Of a stretch of DNA of 32,000 nucleotides, positions 8,169 through 13,588 are shown in pieces (within the stretch, counting starts at the first letter, position 1; each line of letters opens with the position of its first letter). The notes beneath the pieces are model-generated. The model ran no database searches, was not told the DNA's origin, and worked only from the letters and a program-made list of their open reading frames with translations. The DNA is from Patescibacteria group bacterium (GTDB taxonomy: Bacteria; Patescibacteriota; Patescibacteriia; 2-01-FULL-39-33), in NCBI GenBank assembly GCA_041662745.1, contig JBAZRV010000002.1, positions 150,001-182,000 on the forward strand, given 5' to 3'. The position numbers and the translations under genes were made by a program.

Positions 8169-8263
8169 AAAGTTCAGAATTCGGGCTTAATTTTTGGGGG
8201 AAAATCAGTGCCGTCTGCGACGGCCCGAAAATGCGTTCGAGCTATGTCCATTATCCTCCACCA
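8169..8263. repeat. IR2 right arm (95 bp, element X), ending in TCCACCA just upstream of the ZIP gene
   Basis: Perfect inverted copy of 7184..7278. It contains the hairpin CCGTC-tgc-GACGG nested in TTCGGG...CCCGAA. Confidence 0.95.
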
Positions 8264-8272
8264 ATATATCTT

Positions 8273-9022
8273 ATGATTATGCCAAATATTTTATGGTCAA
8301 TTTCGGCCGTAGCTGTTGTCAGCCTGCTGTCGTTCTCCGGAGCGCTCAGCTTGTTTCTTAACGAAAAGTGGCTGAACAAAGCTTTGATTTATTTTGTCTC
8401 CTTCGCGGCCGGTTCCATGATCGGCGCGTCCTTTTTCCATTTATTGCCCGAAGCCTTAGAAACAATTCCTTCATTAGAGGTTTTTATCGCCGTTTTAGTC
8501 GGTTTCTCGCTTTTCTTCGTCTTGGAAAGATTCTTGCGTTGGCATCATTGCCATAATGGGAAATGCGAAACTCATAATCATTTGGGCTGGCTGAATTTGA
8601 TCGGCGACGGTTTTCACAATGCGATTGACGGCATGGTCATCTTTGCCTCCTTTTTGGGCGGTCCGGTTTTGGGCATACCGGTTACTTTATCCATAATCCT
8701 TCATGAAATTCCGCAGGAATTGGGAGATTTCGGGGTTTTACTATATTCCGGATTTACCAAAAAGAAGGCTTTATTTTATAATTTGTTTTCCGCCTGCATG
8801 GCCTTTGTCGGCGTGTTGCTAGGTTGGATGTTTTATCAACAAAGCGAACTGGTTTCCGCTTTACTTCTGCCTTTTGCCGCCGGCGGTTTTATTTATATCG
8901 CTTCCTCGGATTTGATTCCCGAATTGCATAAGGATAGGAATTTGACCCGCGCTGTTTTATCTTATATTTTGTTTGTTTCGGCTTTAGTTTTCATGTATTT
9001 TATGAAAGTGTGGTTTGAATAG
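8273..9022 (+). CDS. ZIP family metal (zinc) transporter
   Basis: Polytopic membrane protein with a His-rich loop (WHHCHNGKCETHNH) and the ZIP signature HEIPQELGDFGVLL. The ORF-track start 8231 lies inside repeat X, so ATG 8273 (MIMPNILW) is preferred. Confidence 0.8.
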   Translation: MIMPNILWSISAVAVVSLLSFSGALSLFLNEKWLNKALIYFVSFAAGSMIGASFFHLLPEALETIPSLEVFIAVLVGFSLFFVLERFLRWHHCHNGKCETHNHLGWLNLIGDGFHNAIDGMVIFASFLGGPVLGIPVTLSIILHEIPQELGDFGVLLYSGFTKKKALFYNLFSACMAFVGVLLGWMFYQQSELVSALLLPFAAGGFIYIASSDLIPELHKDRNLTRAVLSYILFVSALVFMYFMKVWFE

Positions 9023-9087
9023 ATTAGCTGTTAATTATTTCTTTCCGCCTGTCGGCAGGGTTAGCGTTAAAATATTATCTGGAAATT

Positions 9088-10161
9088 ATGAAAAAAATCA
9101 TATATCTAATCGTTTTTCTGTCAGCGTTTTGGCCGGCTTTGGCATTAGCTCAGTATTCGCCTGTCGGCGATAATCAGAATATTTATTATTATTCCGCCAC
9201 TTGCCCGCATTGTCTTAATGTCCACGAATTTTTTGATCAGTATGATATTTTAAAAAAATATAACATCATAGAGAAAGAGGTGTCGCAGAATCCCAAAAAC
9301 GCCAAGGAGTTTTATGATTTATGCGTGGCTAAGAGCGTGCCGCCCGAGGATATTGGCGTACCTTACTTGCATTTTGAGGGTCAGTGCCTGTCCGGCGATC
9401 AGCCGATCATTGATTTTTTTAAAGCTAAATTGGGACTGATGGAGGAAAGCCAGCCGCCGAACGGCGGTCCGGCAACAGGCAAGACAGATAACGGCTTGAC
9501 GATCGGGGCGGTAACCGTGGCGGCTTTGGCCGATTCCATCAACCCTTGCGCCTTCTCGGTTATGATTTTCCTAATGTTGTCGCTTTTGGCTATCGGCGCT
9601 AAGAAGAGAATGCTTAAGATCGGCATCACTTATATTATTACTGTCTATATCGTTTACTTGGCGGCCGGATTGGGTTTGCTGGCAACCTTTCAATGGCTTA
9701 GCGTCATTAGCAAATATATTTTATGGCTGGCGGCCGGACTGGCGATTATTGCCGGACTAATTAACATTAAAGACTTTTTTTGGTATGGCCAGGGGATTAC
9801 TCTGGCTATTCCCGAAGATAAGAAGCCGCTATTGGAAAAATATATCAAGCACGCCTCACTGCCGGCGGCAATTGTTTTGGGGTTTTTAGTCGCCCTGTTT
9901 GAACTGCCTTGCACCGGCGGATTTTATTTGGCTATTCTGGCCTTGTTGGCTCAAGAAATGACTTATTGGAGCGGGGTGGCTTATTTGCTGTTTTATAATA
10001 TTGTTTTTGTGGCGCCGTTATTTATTATTTTAGCCATTGTGTATAAAGGCGTATCGCCGCAACAGTTGGAGAATTGGCGTACGGCCAAACGCAAATGGCT
10101 ACGGCTGTTGATGGGATTAGTGTTAGTTGTGTTGGGTTTGAGTTTGATATTTCTATTTTAA
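9088..10161 (+). CDS. Thioredoxin-like (CPHC) domain fused to a CcdA/DsbD-type thiol-disulfide transporter
   Basis: Signal/TM segment, then ATCPHCLN. The membrane domain has SINPCAFSV and ELPCTGG, the two conserved Cys motifs of the CcdA/DsbD family. Confidence 0.7.
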   Translation: MKKIIYLIVFLSAFWPALALAQYSPVGDNQNIYYYSATCPHCLNVHEFFDQYDILKKYNIIEKEVSQNPKNAKEFYDLCVAKSVPPEDIGVPYLHFEGQCLSGDQPIIDFFKAKLGLMEESQPPNGGPATGKTDNGLTIGAVTVAALADSINPCAFSVMIFLMLSLLAIGAKKRMLKIGITYIITVYIVYLAAGLGLLATFQWLSVISKYILWLAAGLAIIAGLINIKDFFWYGQGITLAIPEDKKPLLEKYIKHASLPAAIVLGFLVALFELPCTGGFYLAILALLAQEMTYWSGVAYLLFYNIVFVAPLFIILAIVYKGVSPQQLENWRTAKRKWLRLLMGLVLVVLGLSLIFLF

Positions 10162-10370: not shown

Positions 10371-11057
10371 ATGAAAAAGAAGAGTGAGTTCTTGAGTGCC
10401 CTGGGTGTTATGTGGGAGATTTGGAAATCGCTGACGGACGAAATTTTGTCTTTAGGCGGCGATGACGAGGCGATTTGCCTTATTAAGGCGAATAATGATC
10501 TGCGAAGGCAAATGGCCGAATTGGTAATGGCTAAAGCGCGTGACATCAAAGACGCCGCCAAGCAAATCGTCTCGCCGTATCTGACGTCTGTCCATGACCT
10601 CGTCATTGACTTCAGTCAGGATCTCGGGCAGATGATTGCCGCCGGCAAGTATGACTGGACCAACTCCGACATTACCGCCGAGCATTTTCCTCTTAATGGA
10701 GCGGGTAAGCGGAAGGTCCGAGTCGAGTTGCTTCACTTCAATCAGTATTTCAAAAATGGCGATGAAGTGATTGCCAAACTGAAAGAAGTCAATAAGTGGC
10801 TGGCCCAGCAAGGAGCGAACTATCGCTATCGTTTCTCTCGCATTGAAGAGTTTTTGGCTTTGGGCGTGGTCCAACCCGGTCTGCAACGGCAATTTCCCAT
10901 TGCCGCTCTGGGCTCAATTTGGCACCGTGCCGGCCTCCGCGACTTCGCTTACCTCTACGGGTTTGGTGCGGAGCGCGACCTGCGCCTGCGCTGTCTTGAG
11001 TTTGACTTCGGCGGCCCTTGGCGGTTCGCTGTTGTCCGCGAGCATGCCTGCCGGTAG
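10371..11057 (+). CDS. DGR variable (target) protein 1, VR at the C-terminus
   Basis: 228 aa, a paralog of the next gene (GKYDW.NS.I....FP, NGDEVIA.LK, QRQFPIAALGSIWH). The C-terminal 40 aa are encoded by VR1. No obvious signal peptide or TM. Confidence 0.85.
   Translation: MKKKSEFLSALGVMWEIWKSLTDEILSLGGDDEAICLIKANNDLRRQMAELVMAKARDIKDAAKQIVSPYLTSVHDLVIDFSQDLGQMIAAGKYDWTNSDITAEHFPLNGAGKRKVRVELLHFNQYFKNGDEVIAKLKEVNKWLAQQGANYRYRFSRIEEFLALGVVQPGLQRQFPIAALGSIWHRAGLRDFAYLYGFGAERDLRLRCLEFDFGGPWRFAVVREHACR
10918..11039 (+). other. DGR variable region VR1 (122 nt)
   Basis: Aligned by hand to TR 12002..12123. 23 substitutions are all at TR adenines. Three further synonymous non-adenine differences occur in the last 20 nt (cgc/cgg, ttt/ttc, gcg/gct). 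Confidence 0.9.
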
Positions 11058-11117: not shown

Positions 11118-11729
11118 ATGAGAACTGTAAGTAAAACCGGAAACAAAAAAGTCAGAACTGGAACTATCTCCGCCATCACTGGCGCGATAATCTGCCAAGG
11201 CGGAAAAGCCAAGGACTTGACTGCGATTGTCAGAAATGATGAATTGCTCAAACAATTGGCCACGACCATTATCGAACTGTCCAAAAAGATCATTCAAGTC
11301 ATTGTTGACTGCACCATGTCGCTCGGCGATATGATCGACGCCGGCAAGTATGACTGGGTGAACTCGAACATCAACGCCAACAACTTCCCGATCAGCAGGA
11401 AGGGTAAGAAGGTGGTCAGCATTGAACTCTGGCATCCCAACAGGTATTTTAATAACGGCGATGAAGTGATTGCCGAGCTGAAAAAAACTAAACCCGGCTA
11501 TCGTTTTACTCAGATTGAAGAACTCCTGGCCTTAGGCGCGGTCCGACCCGATCTGCAACGGCAATTTCCCATTGCCGCTCTGGGCTCAATTTGGCACCCT
11601 GCCGGCGACCGCGACTTCGCTTTCCTCGACAGGCATGATGCGGAGCGCAACCTGTTCCTGGACTATCTTGAGCGTGACTTCAGCGACCGTTGGCGCTTTG
11701 CGGTTGTCCGCGAGCATGCCTGCCGGTAG
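11118..11729 (+). CDS. DGR variable (target) protein 2, VR at the C-terminus
   Basis: 203 aa, with AGGAGG 6 nt upstream of the ATG. It is a paralog of target 1. The C-terminal 40 aa are encoded by VR2. Confidence 0.85.
   Translation: MRTVSKTGNKKVRTGTISAITGAIICQGGKAKDLTAIVRNDELLKQLATTIIELSKKIIQVIVDCTMSLGDMIDAGKYDWVNSNINANNFPISRKGKKVVSIELWHPNRYFNNGDEVIAELKKTKPGYRFTQIEELLALGAVRPDLQRQFPIAALGSIWHPAGDRDFAFLDRHDAERNLFLDYLERDFSDRWRFAVVREHACR
11591..11712 (+). other. DGR variable region VR2 (122 nt)
   Basis: 15 differences from the TR, every one at a TR adenine. The adenine-free 3' 22 nt are identical to the TR. Confidence 0.92.
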
Positions 11730-11739
11730 GCAGGCATGT
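11716..11739 (+). promoter_or_regulatory. GC-rich hairpin 3 nt after VR2 (identical to the VR1 hairpin)
   Basis: catgcctgcc-ggta-ggcaggcatg. The stop TAG at 11727..11729 sits in the same position as in target 1. Confidence 0.7.
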
Positions 11740-11771: not shown

Positions 11772-11776
11772 TTTTC

Positions 11777-11814
11777 CGCGCGATGACCATAGTTATCGCG
11801 CGGCTTTTATTTTA
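11777..11814 (+). terminator. Rho-independent terminator after the target operon
   Basis: ccgcgcgat-gaccatagtt-atcgcgcgg followed by cttttatttt. A TATAAT at 11828..11833 follows and may drive TR transcription. Confidence 0.7.
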
Positions 11815-12001
11815 TCTAATTTTTTACTATAATAGAGCCAAGGGTTAATACTCCCGCGGCCACGGTTTCGGGATACCCGCAAAATAAACAAGATTGCTCG
11901 GCGTCTGATGTTGGCGGGTTTAAAGACCCCGAATAAAATACAGCCGGAAGATACGGCCTGGCTGTTCAACCGGCAGTGGCTACAGATGGCGTCAGACGAA
12001 T

Positions 12002-12123
12002 TTTGGCACCATGCCGGCAACCGCAACTTCGCTTACCTCAACAGGAATGATGCGAAGCGCAACCTGAACCTGAACTATCTTGAGAATGACTTCAACGACA
12101 ATTGGCGCTTTGCGGTTGTCCGC
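12002..12123 (+). other. DGR template repeat (TR), 122 nt
   Basis: Homologous to VR1 and VR2. It contains 31 adenines, including 10 AAY codons when read in the VR frame (GNRNFAYLNRNDAKRNLNLNYLENDFNDNW). The 3' 22 nt are adenine-free. Homology to the VRs stops at ...gttgtccgc. Confidence 0.92.
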
Positions 12124-12556
12124 TATCAATTTTGTTTTCCGTCCTCGCTGTTGGCGGGGATGTTTTTTCCAAACCGATTTTCCACGCATAGGCCAACCGT
12201 CCGATTTCCTCAATTTTAAGCGCCAAATCGCGGAATTTATTATCATTAAATAGCTTCATTTCCCAGCACAGCCGCAAATAAAATTTCAGCAGATCGATTT
12301 TTTTTATTGATTTTATTGCCGGTTTTAATTTTTTGTCTTTCGGCAGATATTGGGCGGTGGCCAGTATTTCCAATAGTTCCAGAAATATCTGATCCAGGCG
12401 GATGCCCAAGGTAAAGCGAGATGTTTTGGGAAAATTTTTTAACCAATCATGCCAAAGTTTGTAGGCAGCGATGGTTTTGCCCAGAACCAGTAAATTTCCC
12501 GTCGGGGGGGGGGATTTAAAGGATGAATTATGAGAAATAAGATCAGATTGAGTCAT
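12092..12556 (-). CDS. avd: Avd-like accessory protein (four-helix-bundle / 23S rRNA IVS protein family), start uncertain
   Basis: AYKLWHDWLKNFPKTSRFTLGIRLDQIFLELLEILATAQYLPK...IDLLKFYLRLCWEMKLF...LALKIEEIGRLAYAWK matches the four-helix-bundle family I recall next to CPR DGR RTs. It is on the opposite strand to the TR and RT. The 3' end overlaps the TR (12092..12123). The ATG 12556 start overlaps the RT start. Confidence 0.7.
   Translation of the reverse strand: MTQSDLISHNSSFKSPPPTGNLLVLGKTIAAYKLWHDWLKNFPKTSRFTLGIRLDQIFLELLEILATAQYLPKDKKLKPAIKSIKKIDLLKFYLRLCWEMKLFNDNKFRDLALKIEEIGRLAYAWKIGLEKTSPPTARTENKIDSGQPQSANCR
12504..12513. repeat. G10 homopolymer tract
   Basis: Ten consecutive G residues 16 nt upstream of the RT ATG (12530). 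On the minus strand it encodes PPP within the long form of the avd ORF. Confidence 0.9.
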
Positions 12557-13588
12557 AGTTTTGACGAGATTATTTGTCTTGATAATTTATTGGCGGCCTG
12601 GCGGGAATTCGTCCGTGGCAAAAGAGACAAGAAAGACGTGCAAGAATTCCAGTGGCAACTGATGGATAATCTTACAGTGCTTCATTGGAATTTGGCAAGC
12701 GGCGATTATTGCCATGGCGGCTATCAGGCCTTTAAGATTTGTGATCCCAAATCGCGGCAAATCCATAAGGCGTCGGTTCGGGACAGATTAGTCCATCATG
12801 CGATTTATCGGATTTTGTATCCGTTCTTTGATCGGACTTTCATCGCCGATTCTTATTCCTGCCGGCTGGGCAAGGGCACGCATAGGGCCTTGGCTCGGTT
12901 CAGTGAATTCGCTTACTCCGCCAGTCGGAACAATACCCGCACTTGCTGGGTTTTGAAGGGCGATATCAGGAAGTTTTTTGCCAACATTAATCATGGGATA
13001 TTGAAAGAGATTTTGGCCGAGTATATTCTAGATAAAAAGATTTTGGGGTTATTGGATGAAGTGATTGACAGCTTTCACTGTGTTAATGATAACCTGGATT
13101 CCTGCTTTCGCAGGAATGACAAGGGGAAGGATGAGGATGTCAGTGGTAGTAGAGGTCTGCCATTAGGCAATCTGACTTCGCAACTTTTAGTTAATATTTA
13201 CATGAATAGATTCGATCAATTTGTTAAGCATAAATTACAAGTCAAGTATTATATCCGCTATGCTGATGATTTCGTGATAATATCTAATGACAAAGGAGAT
13301 CTAATTCGATTATTGGAGTTGATTAGCAATTATTTGAAACAAGAACTGAAATTGGAGCTTCATGATGATAAAATTTCCATTCGCACTCTTAGTTCAAGCA
13401 TTGATTTCTTGGGCTGGATTAATTTTCCCCGTCATCGTGTTTTACGGACAAAAACTAAAAGGAGGATGTTTAGGAGATTGCGGGATAATTTTAGGTCAGA
13501 AGCGGTTAATTCGTATATCGGCCTGCTAAGTCATGGCAATGCTTATGGATTGCAAAAAAAGATTGCTAAATTAGCTGATTTTTGTTAG
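12530..13588 (+). CDS. DGR reverse transcriptase
   Basis: 352 aa. RT motifs: RQIHKASVRDRLVHHAIY, SYSCRLGKGTH, VLKGDIRKFFANINH, the DGR-type motif 4 LPLGNLTSQLLVNIYMN, the catalytic YADD (YIRYADDFVII), and IDFLGW. RBS AAAGGA upstream. Confidence 0.92.
   Translation: MRNKIRLSHSFDEIICLDNLLAAWREFVRGKRDKKDVQEFQWQLMDNLTVLHWNLASGDYCHGGYQAFKICDPKSRQIHKASVRDRLVHHAIYRILYPFFDRTFIADSYSCRLGKGTHRALARFSEFAYSASRNNTRTCWVLKGDIRKFFANINHGILKEILAEYILDKKILGLLDEVIDSFHCVNDNLDSCFRRNDKGKDEDVSGSRGLPLGNLTSQLLVNIYMNRFDQFVKHKLQVKYYIRYADDFVIISNDKGDLIRLLELISNYLKQELKLELHDDKISIRTLSSSIDFLGWINFPRHRVLRTKTKRRMFRRLRDNFRSEAVNSYIGLLSHGNAYGLQKKIAKLADFC
13089..13122. repeat. Hairpin repeat copy 1, in frame inside the RT ORF
   Basis: ataacctggattcctg-ctttcg-caggaatgacaa. 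It shares its 16-nt 5' and 12-nt 3' parts with 22970..23004 and encodes ..NLDSCFRRNDK.. Confidence 0.75.

What the first reader, a model, noticed from the sequence alone, without database searches (positions are those of the whole stretch)
12092..12556. Avd-like gene is inverted, fills the whole TR-RT spacer and overlaps the TR 3' end
In the BPP-1 prototype the order is target-avd-TR-RT on one strand, with a short TR-RT spacer that is part of the functional DGR RNA. Here the 406-nt gap between the TR end (12123) and the RT start (12530) is occupied entirely by the Avd-like ORF on the opposite strand. Its last ~10 codons are antisense to the TR 3' end (12092..12123). If ATG 12556 is used, its 5' end overlaps the RT start codon region. 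Any TR-spacer-RT transcript is therefore fully antisense to the avd mRNA. That implies either transcriptional interference or antisense coupling between the accessory protein and the template RNA, or separate TR and RT transcripts.
Basis: partly seen in the sequence, partly recalled or inferred. Interest (0 to 1): 0.65.

Follow-up and report, generated by a model that had tools for sequence, protein, structure and literature searches.

The report
Inverted avd in a CPR retroelement
The backwards-facing helper gene (avd) is the normal, already catalogued layout for mutagenic retroelements of candidate-phyla-radiation bacteria. It probably works because the template RNA is a separate, self-terminating gene whose folded scaffold lies in front of the template rather than behind it.

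Summary
A 154-codon minus-strand ORF (12092..12556) is a genuine Avd (Pfam bAvd 44.4 bits, cutoff 40). It fills the 406-nt TR-RT gap, overlaps the TR by 32 nt, and overlaps the RT start by 27 nt if ATG 12556 is used.

The layout is not new. It is Architecture B3, TR-(avd)-RT, of Wu et al. 2018 (90% of their CPR set). In my survey 74 of 74 related Patescibacteria loci have it.

The avd/TR overlap is a local accident. Relatives stop 4-25 nt after the TR, and this lineage lost the stop through a 1-nt loop indel.

- A conserved -10 box is followed by a strongly covarying structured leader. A model built without the window scores it at 66 bits, and 73 loci match.
- The leader pairs with the linker just after the TR.
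- A hairpin plus T-run follows the TR in 48 of 64 loci (background 2%).
- The antisense-avd spacer shows no conserved structure.

The element order resembles a circular permutation of the BPP-1 DGR RNA. I found this in no paper or Rfam family. This scan has reached the same reading before on other CPR genomes. No transcript data could be obtained.

The parts
10371..11057 (+). Target gene 1, with VR1 at 10918..11039
   Evidence: ORF. 23 of 26 TR/VR1 mismatches fall on TR adenines.
11118..11729 (+). Target gene 2, with VR2 at 11590..11711
   Evidence: ORF. 15 of 15 mismatches fall on TR adenines.
11714..11739 (+). GC-rich hairpin with a GGTA loop directly after VR2 (target-site hairpin). A second copy follows VR1.
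   Evidence: Read from the sequence. It is absent after the TR.
11776..11803 (+). Terminator-like hairpin (12 pairs) plus CTTTTATTTT, ending the target-gene unit
   Evidence: A terminator-like site lies within 200 nt after the VR in 41 of 64 related loci.
11828..11833 (+). TATAAT, a conserved -10-like box and the predicted promoter of the template RNA
   Evidence: The aligned column block reads TAAAAT (14 loci), TATAAT (12), TATACT (8), TACAAT (5) and others across 65 loci. It sits just after the target terminator's T-run.
11840..12168 (+). Predicted DGR template RNA gene (~330 nt): leader, TR, linker and terminal stem-loop. Both ends are inferred, not measured.
   Evidence: No transcript data.
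11853..11872 (+). Leader hairpin with an ACG loop. Most relatives have two such hairpins plus an enclosing helix; the window's leader is about 55 nt shorter.
   Evidence: Leader length is 169 nt here against about 225 nt in relatives.
11882..12006 (+). Conserved structured RNA domain ending at the TR start. P4 is 11902..11912 with 11988..11998, P5 is 11916..11918 with 11927..11929, and P6 is 11943..11947 with 11970..11974.
   Evidence: Model R1, built from 37 other loci, scores 66.1 bits, E 9e-13, full length.
11886..11896 (+). Leader strand AAACAAGAUUG, which pairs with the linker just after the TR (candidate primer strand)
   Evidence: Covarying duplex in relatives: own pairs 6.76 against 5.31 for other pairs, 0 of 5000 permutations. 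The window's own fold forms 11 bp.
12002..12123 (+). Template repeat (TR)
12127..12137 (+). Linker strand CAAUUUUGUUU, partner of 11886..11896, beginning 3 nt after the TR/VR homology ends
12140..12168 (+). Stem-loop (10 pairs, 12140..12162) plus TTTTTT. It is terminator-like and sits where the BPP-1 Avd-binding stem-loop sits. It is antisense to Avd residues ~130-139 (EKTSPPTART).
   Evidence: Found in 48 of 64 loci against a 2.1% background; only 3 of 64 on the minus strand.
12092..12556 (-). avd ORF, long form, 154 aa. The Avd domain is about 12179..12490. The C-terminal tail 12095..12178 is antisense to the RNA 3' elements and the TR end.
   Evidence: The top two PDB profile hits are BPP-1 Avd, 4dwl and 8ub7.
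12488..12490 (-). CTG, the alternative short-form avd start. It aligns with the ATG of the Buchananbacteria homologue and is preceded by GGGAAA.
12504..12513 (+). G10 run at the avd/RT junction. It encodes PPP in the long avd form.
   Evidence: A G-run of 7-14 nt occurs at this junction in 64 of 74 loci.
12530..13588 (+). DGR reverse transcriptase (352 aa) with the LPLGNLTSQ motif; RBS AAAGGA at 12518..12523

Best explanation
This is a standard CPR (Patescibacteria) DGR of the catalogued architecture B3, TR-(avd)-RT. avd and RT form a divergent gene pair.

The template is probably not part of a TR-spacer-RT transcript. It appears to be its own small RNA gene of about 330 nt (about 11840..12168, + strand), made of these parts in order:
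1. A conserved -10 box.
2. A structured 5' leader.
3. The TR.
4. A short linker that pairs back to the leader.
5. A stem-loop with a U-tract, which likely both ends the transcript and corresponds to the Avd-binding stem-loop of BPP-1.

The RNA scaffold lies upstream of the TR, so the TR-RT interval carries no RNA function and can hold avd in either orientation. avd converges on the RNA gene, and its last codons are simply the antisense of the RNA's 3' stem-loop and U-tract. In this lineage a 1-nt indel in the stem-loop's loop shifted the avd frame past the usual stop, extending the ORF 32 nt into the TR. This is an incidental tail, not a regulatory device.

Shown here: Avd identity, the geometry, ubiquity of the layout, covariation of the leader and the leader-linker duplex, enrichment of the hairpin plus T-run, and lack of structure in the spacer. 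Inferred: transcript ends, termination, and the priming role.
For: - Layout is catalogued: Wu et al. 2018, Fig. 5 and text.
- 74 of 74 related loci with enough upstream DNA have an inverted avd directly upstream of RT.
- The TR-end to RT distance is stereotyped at about 400 nt. The avd stop lies 4-25 nt after the TR in most of 64 loci, and the window is the extreme at +32-37.
- A hairpin plus T-run follows the TR in 48 of 64 loci. Background is 2.1% per 75-nt window, and the minus strand shows it in only 3 of 64.
- A conserved -10 box is present.
- Leader structure: 48 pairs, 42 with compensatory changes, 93.9% of cells paired against 67% shuffled and 37-53% slid, 0 of 500 shuffles as high. 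Many G-U pairs, and a weaker fold on the reverse strand, favour the + strand.
- The leader-linker duplex covaries and forms in the window's own fold.
- Model R1 finds exactly one hit per locus in 73 loci, on the RT strand, ending at the TR. It hits the window at 66 bits, and only three sites match in the whole 1.0-Mb genome, all of them at the genome's three DGR cassettes (the third is decayed).
- The spacer (+ strand) has an RNAalifold energy of -0.7 with 6 pairs, against -61.9 with 48 pairs for the leader.
- Close relatives show the frame and stop change.
Against: - The promoter, 3' end and absence of read-through are therefore predictions.
- A generic sigma-70 scan anchored on the TR start showed no enrichment. 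The -10 box lacks a clear conserved -35.
- No conserved RT promoter was identified.
- The stem-loop could be only a protein-binding element, and the U-tract could be an inefficient terminator.
- Handa et al. (bioRxiv 10.1101/2023.10.23.563531) report BPP-1-like elements predicted from 40 nt upstream plus 100 nt downstream of TR in CPR DGRs. That implies a conventional downstream partner for the stop duplex.
- The window's leader is shorter than the family norm.
Confidence: 0.78

Rival explanations
1. BPP-1-like wiring. The functional DGR RNA is a TR-spacer(-RT) co-transcript, and the Spacer functions (primer, stop-duplex partner, RT-binding stem) are encoded in the antisense-avd region. The hairpin after the TR would be only the Avd-binding stem-loop, and transcription would read through it.
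For: The BPP-1 precedent. Handa et al. state that 207 of 278 Avd-containing DGRs, CPR included, have a stem-loop just downstream of TR and an upstream/downstream duplex. No conserved RT promoter was found here.
Against: The spacer (+ strand) has essentially no conserved structure. The covarying partners of both TR flanks lie upstream. A T-run follows the hairpin in 75% of loci.
Confidence: 0.1
2. Antisense coupling. The convergent overlap of the template RNA's 3' end with the avd mRNA's 3' end (78 nt here, about 20-40 nt in relatives) is used to regulate Avd or template-RNA levels, through duplex formation, RNase III cleavage or polymerase collision. This could act on top of the main explanation.
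For: In most relatives the avd stop lies before or inside the hairpin, so the overlap of the two 3' ends is clade-wide. No minus-strand terminator lies near the TR end (3 of 64), so avd transcripts may run into the TR in antisense.
Against: The extent of overlap and the reading frame vary freely among close relatives, as expected for a by-product of compact packing. There is no expression evidence.
Confidence: 0.15
3. The C-terminal extension of Avd into the TR is a selected protein feature of this lineage.
For: The ORF is open to 12092. The tail motif LEKTSPP recurs in homologues.
Against: Beyond SPP the tail is read in different frames in 88%-identical relatives (SGEDGKQN*) and in the window (TARTENKIDSGQPQSANCR*). 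The conserved part is the antisense of the RNA stem-loop. The window's tail is the longest of 19 homologues.
Confidence: 0.04

Closest known systems
DGR cassette Architecture B3, TR-(avd)-RT, of CPR bacteria (Wu et al. 2018, Nucleic Acids Res 46:11, PMC5758913)
   Same: Same order and orientation: target(s), TR, reverse-strand avd, RT. Same host group. One to two targets upstream on the TR strand.
   Different: Nothing at the level of layout. That paper does not treat the TR-flanking RNA, terminators after the TR, or gene overlaps. The window's 32-nt avd/TR overlap is atypical within the type.
Bordetella phage BPP-1 DGR (mtd-avd-TR-brt) and its DGR RNA as solved with bRT-Avd (Handa et al., bioRxiv 10.1101/2023.10.23.563531; PDB 8ub7 series)
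   Same: Adenine-specific TR-to-VR transfer, an Avd plus RT pair, and a GC hairpin after the VR. A stem-loop lies directly 3' of the TR. One duplex abuts the TR 3' end and a roughly 12-bp duplex abuts the TR 5' end. The second duplex's partner strand is followed by a short stem-loop and then adenosines.
   Different: avd is inverted and lies between TR and RT. The partner strands of both TR-flanking duplexes lie 5' of the TR rather than in a 3' Spacer. The RNA appears to end about 45 nt after the TR at a U-tract. There are extra 5' hairpins with ACG loops. No structure is conserved between TR and RT.
RT-10 RNA motif (Weinberg et al. 2017, PMC5737381), the structured TR-RT spacer of BPP-1-type DGRs
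   Same: A conserved structured RNA attached to a DGR template and proposed to prime reverse transcription.
   Different: RT-10 lies between the TR and RT. Here no Rfam family matches the window or four related loci at E<=0.1-1, and the structured part is upstream of the TR.

Membership tests
Diversity-generating retroelement (DGR) | TR/VR repeat pair whose differences fall on TR adenines | tested here: met
   VR2 15 of 15 and VR1 23 of 26 mismatches at TR adenines.
Diversity-generating retroelement (DGR) | Adjacent RT of the DGR clade (RVT_1 with the [LIV]GxxxSQ motif) | tested here: met
   RVT_1 at 96 bits. LPLGNLTSQ is in the translation and invariant in 31 homologues. The nearest relatives all sit next to TR/VR pairs.
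Diversity-generating retroelement (DGR) | Mutagenic retrohoming activity | not testable with these tools
   Only the footprint (adenine-specific VR differences) is visible.
Avd / bAvd (PF22296) | Sequence match above the curated threshold | tested here: met
   Pfam bAvd at 44.4 bits against a cutoff of 40, residues 34-126. All 19 homologues carry PF22296.
Avd / bAvd (PF22296) | NCBIfam equivalog DivGenRetAVD (NF033474) cutoff | tested here: not met
   51.9 bits against a cutoff of 80, although the alignment is full length at 2-102 of 104. It is a distant member, not an equivalog-level match.
Avd / bAvd (PF22296) | Relationship to the solved BPP-1 Avd pentamer | tested here: inconclusive
   The profile of 19 homologues ranks 4dwl (Bbp7) and 8ub7_B (Avd) first and second over the full length, but only at E 0.02 and 0.15. 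The single-sequence search found nothing. No fold was predicted.
Architecture B3, TR-(avd)-RT (Wu et al. 2018) | TR, then reverse-strand avd, then RT, with no other accessory gene | tested here: met
   Coordinates. The definition was read.
Architecture B3, TR-(avd)-RT (Wu et al. 2018) | CPR/Patescibacteria host | tested here: met
   Homologues are named Buchananbacteria, Parcubacteria and Patescibacteria. The genome is 1.0 Mb and 98% complete.
BPP-1-type DGR RNA (5' flank - TR - 3' Spacer) | Structured Spacer RNA between TR and RT carrying the primer, stop-duplex strand and RT-binding stem | tested here: not met
   No conserved structure on the + strand between the post-TR hairpin and RT. The partners of both TR flanks lie upstream.
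BPP-1-type DGR RNA (5' flank - TR - 3' Spacer) | Stem-loop immediately 3' of the TR (Avd-binding stem-loop, Sp3-33 in BPP-1) | tested here: inconclusive
   A hairpin of 6-15 pairs (mostly 7-10) lies 13-35 nt after the TR in most loci. Avd binding was not testable.
Intrinsic (Rho-independent) terminator | GC-rich hairpin followed by a U-tract at the end of a transcription unit | tested here: met
   Pattern at 12140..12168. Found in 48 of 64 loci against a 2.1% background.
Intrinsic (Rho-independent) terminator | Transcript 3' ends at the U-tract | not testable with these tools

The most novel reading that the evidence does not exclude
The template RNA of CPR B3-type DGRs is a circular permutation of the BPP-1 DGR RNA.

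The order of elements in the leader is: primer strand, stop-duplex strand (P4 5'), short stem-loop (P5), conserved adenosines, a single-stranded stretch, then stem-loop P6. This matches BPP-1 Spacer positions ~53-139, but the block sits 5' of the TR.

The RNA then ends at the Avd-binding stem-loop, which doubles as the terminator and is encoded antisense within the last avd codons. cDNA would be cis-primed from a leader nucleotide (window ~11894-11896) and would start 1-3 nt beyond the TR/VR homology.
Probability: 0.5. Interest if true: 0.75.

Novelty: new variant of a known kind. Interest (0 to 1): 0.5.

Why it matters
CPR and related lineages carry a very large share of natural DGRs, yet all mechanistic knowledge comes from the BPP-1 element, whose RNA scaffold lies between the TR and RT. 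If the CPR template RNA is a stand-alone gene with its scaffold upstream, three things follow:
- It explains why avd can sit inverted in the 'spacer'.
- It gives exact RNA boundaries for reconstituting a CPR DGR, about 330 nt here.
- It tests whether the cis-priming and stop architecture seen by cryo-EM tolerates permutation.

It also warns annotators that searching only downstream of the TR for DGR RNA elements will miss them in this clade.

Tried and rejected
- RNAalifold on a plain MAFFT alignment of the post-TR region gave no structure, because stems of variable length were misaligned. I replaced it with a position-specific hairpin count against background.
- A sigma-70 consensus scan anchored on the TR start showed no enrichment: 21 of 64 against a 26% background. 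The conserved -10 box only appeared after aligning from the VR end.
- Rfam gave no hit in the window or in four related loci.
- The single-sequence PDB search for Avd found nothing. The profile search gave only weak BPP-1 Avd hits.
- I tested the idea that the G-run is always the -35/-10 spacer of an RT promoter. A TAnnnT box directly after the run occurs in only 18 of 64 loci and not in the window, so I did not adopt it.
- Paul et al. 2017 (Nat Microbiol), the dedicated CPR DGR paper, is not held, so I cannot exclude that it describes the leader.
- I rejected the avd/TR overlap as a conserved design, since the window is the outlier among 64 loci.

Full report
**Observation.** The window carries a complete DGR.
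- The 122-nt TR (12002..12123, 31 adenines) is repeated as VR2 (11590..11711; 15 of 15 differences at TR adenines) and VR1 (10918..11039; 23 of 26). Each VR lies at the 3' end of a + strand ORF.
- The RT ORF runs 12530..13588 (RVT_1, 96 bits) and holds the DGR motif LPLGNLTSQ.
- The minus-strand ORF 12092..12556 (154 aa) is Avd. Pfam bAvd scores 44.4 bits against a cutoff of 40. NCBIfam DivGenRetAVD aligns full length at 51.9 bits, below its cutoff of 80.
- A profile of 19 homologues ranks the BPP-1 Avd structures 4dwl and 8ub7 first and second, though weakly.

**The layout is already catalogued.** Wu et al. 2018 (PMC5758913) define Architecture B3 as TR-(avd)-RT, with parentheses marking the reverse strand. 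[quoted passage not shown]
- The window is from a CPR genome. Avd and RT homologues are named Buchananbacteria, Parcubacteria and Patescibacteria, and the assembly is 1.0 Mb and 98% complete.
- I fetched 80 loci from species-representative genomes using an RT alignment, a query that is neutral about avd orientation. All 74 loci with at least 600 nt upstream of RT have avd on the opposite strand directly upstream of RT. The remaining 7 (6 loci and an artefactual duplicate RT row) are cut by a contig end.

**What is typical and what is not.** In the 64 loci where I could pair a TR with a VR, the cassette is stereotyped.
- The TR end to RT start distance is about 400 nt.
- The avd stop lies 4-25 nt after the TR end in most loci, with 0-9 nt of apparent overlap in six.
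- The window, at 32-37 nt, is the extreme.
- Two 88%-identical relatives (L084, L085) have one more base in the loop of the post-TR hairpin. They read the tail in another frame (…SPPSGEDGKQN*) and stop at a TGA 4-6 nt after the TR.
- The Buchananbacteria relative (L087) uses the window's frame and stops at a TAA in the linker (…SPPTARMEK*), where the window has no stop.
- The overlap with the TR is thus a lineage-specific read-on after a 1-nt indel, not a conserved device.

**The avd start.**
- The Avd domain begins at residue ~23.
- In L087 an ATG start aligns with the window's CTG 12490..12488, which is preceded by GGGAAA. In L084/85 that codon is CGG.
- The window, L084/85 and several other homologues keep the frame open through the C10 run to an ATG.
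- That ATG is the antisense of the CAT codon of the RT's invariant His9. Its presence is therefore partly forced by the RT.
- I leave the long form (ATG 12556) and the short form (CTG 12490) at roughly even odds.

**Where the RNA function lies.** On the + strand, 17 nt after the TR, lies a 10-pair hairpin (12140..12162) followed by TTTTTT.
- The same element (consensus CTCCC…GGGAG TTTTGTTTT, with varying stems) follows the TR in 48 of 64 loci. The background is 2.1% of 75-nt windows, and the minus strand shows it in only 3 of 64.
- It is antisense to the conserved Avd tail (LEKT SPP…). That explains why the tail looks conserved while its frame is not.

Aligning from the VR end revealed further features:
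- a terminator after the target gene (11776..11803 in the window);
- a conserved -10-like box (TAAAAT, TATAAT, TATACT and others; TATAAT 11828..11833 here);
- a conserved leader of about 225 nt up to the TR, which is 169 nt in the window.

RNAalifold on 48 leaders predicts 48 pairs, 42 of them with compensatory changes.
- 93.9% of cells are paired, against 67% after shuffling and 37-53% when partners are slid.
- The covariation score is 0.83 against 0.29, and 0 of 500 shuffles reach it.
- Abundant G-U pairs, and a much weaker fold of the reverse complement, place the RNA on the TR/RT strand.
- A 12-bp helix (P4) closes exactly at the TR start.

A further duplex joins the leader to the linker directly after the TR (A-run plus UGAAGA in the leader, UCUUCAUUU in the linker). 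It covaries: own pairs score 6.76 against 5.31 for pairs from different loci, and 0 of 5000 permutations reach this.

A covariance model built from 37 loci, excluding the window, gives these results:
- It hits the window at 11882..12006 with 66.1 bits (E 9e-13, full length).
- It hits the genome's second DGR with 86.8 bits.
- It hits 73 of 82 fetched loci once each, always on the RT strand and ending at the TR.
- The genome's only other hit is a decayed third cassette.

The window's own sequence folds into the same scheme. The duplex is 11886..11896 with 12127..12137 (11 bp), together with P4-P6 and the terminal hairpin; z = -2.05.

As a control, the TR-RT spacer on the + strand (antisense avd) has no conserved structure. 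Its alifold energy is -0.7 with 6 pairs, against -61.9 with 48 pairs for the leader in the same loci.

**Reading.** The template RNA is best seen as its own gene: promoter, structured leader, TR, linker, stem-loop and terminator. avd and RT form a separate divergent pair, and avd converges on the RNA gene so tightly that its last codons are the antisense of the RNA's 3' hairpin. It leaves only a short 3'-end antisense overlap (78 nt here, about 20-40 nt in relatives) as possible coupling.

**Comparison with BPP-1.** Handa et al. (bioRxiv 10.1101/2023.10.23.563531) describe these elements in order along the Spacer:
1. Avd-binding stem-loop (Sp3-33).
2. Primer A56, with Sp53-56 paired to the TR 3' end.
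3. Stop-duplex strand Sp59-70, paired to the segment just upstream of the TR.
4. A short stem-loop.
5. A80/A81.
6. A single-stranded 'Thumb Ring'.
7. The RT-binding stem-loop.

In the CPR RNA the same order runs from the primer-like strand through P4 5', P5, conserved AAUAA, a conserved single strand and P6. This block precedes the TR, and the RNA ends just after the stem-loop that sits where Sp3-33 would. That is the pattern of a circular permutation. It rests on order and shape only, and I rate it at about 50%.

Handa et al. surveyed only 40 nt upstream and 100 nt downstream of TRs. Wu et al. do not treat TR-flanking RNA. Rfam has no matching family, and my literature searches found no description. 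Paul et al. 2017 could not be read.

**Earlier notes of this scan.** After reaching this reading I found that follow-up agents had reported the same upstream-scaffold RNA for B3-type DGRs in other CPR genomes. These notes agree with my reading but are not independent evidence.

**Verdict.** The flagged feature is real but ordinary for its clade, and the TR overlap is incidental. The added value is the comparative evidence that the clade's template RNA is organised differently from the model system.

Noticed in passing
window 12504-12513; related loci L001-L080: A G-run of 7-14 nt (mostly 8-11) sits at the avd/RT junction, 4-34 nt upstream of the RT start, in 64 of 74 related loci. The window, its paralogue and two 88%-identical relatives all have G10. 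In the window's subclade the run lies inside the long avd ORF (PPP). Several assemblies have N-runs beside it. Its function is unexplained: a phase switch, a promoter spacer in a subclade (TAnnnT directly after the run in 18 loci), or something else.
   Followed up: partly
G000:C4:57740-58795 (L083): A second complete DGR lies in the same 1.0-Mb genome, with an RT 73% identical. All 23 TR/VR mismatches fall on adenines. avd is inverted, and its stop lies in the loop of the post-TR hairpin, 23 nt after the TR. It has a G10 run, and the RNA domain scores 86.8 bits.
   Followed up: partly
G000:C4:~7000-9500 (L088 500-3000): A third, decayed cassette. It has two VR-bearing targets, a divergent copy of the leader RNA (33.9 bits), a TR (L088 2337-2451), a hairpin plus T-run, and an inverted avd (bAvd 64.6 bits). 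The RT is cut off after ~28 codons (MKIYKDIYNEMISLENLFSAWDKFK…), and there is no G-run. It may depend on an RT supplied in trans.
   Followed up: partly
window 11834-11881: The window's template-RNA leader is about 55 nt shorter than the family norm. It has one ACG-loop hairpin (11853-11872), where most relatives have two plus an enclosing helix.
   Followed up: partly
window 12554-12556: The avd long-form ATG is the reverse complement of the CAT codon for the RT's invariant His9. A minus-strand ATG therefore appears here whenever that His is CAT. Whether it is in frame with avd depends on spacing through the G-run; it is out of frame in the paralogue on C4.
   Followed up: partly
L034, L017, L025, L078 (about 15-35 nt upstream of the G-run): A near-perfect palindrome, CTTTTGCCAGTACTGGCAAAAG, spans the avd start region in one subclade, directly beside the G-run. 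Its purpose is unknown.
   Followed up: no
window 12530 vs 12548: The public gene call for this RT is 346 aa (P0020), implying a TTG start at 12548. ATG 12530, with AAAGGA 6 nt upstream, looks the better start.
   Followed up: no
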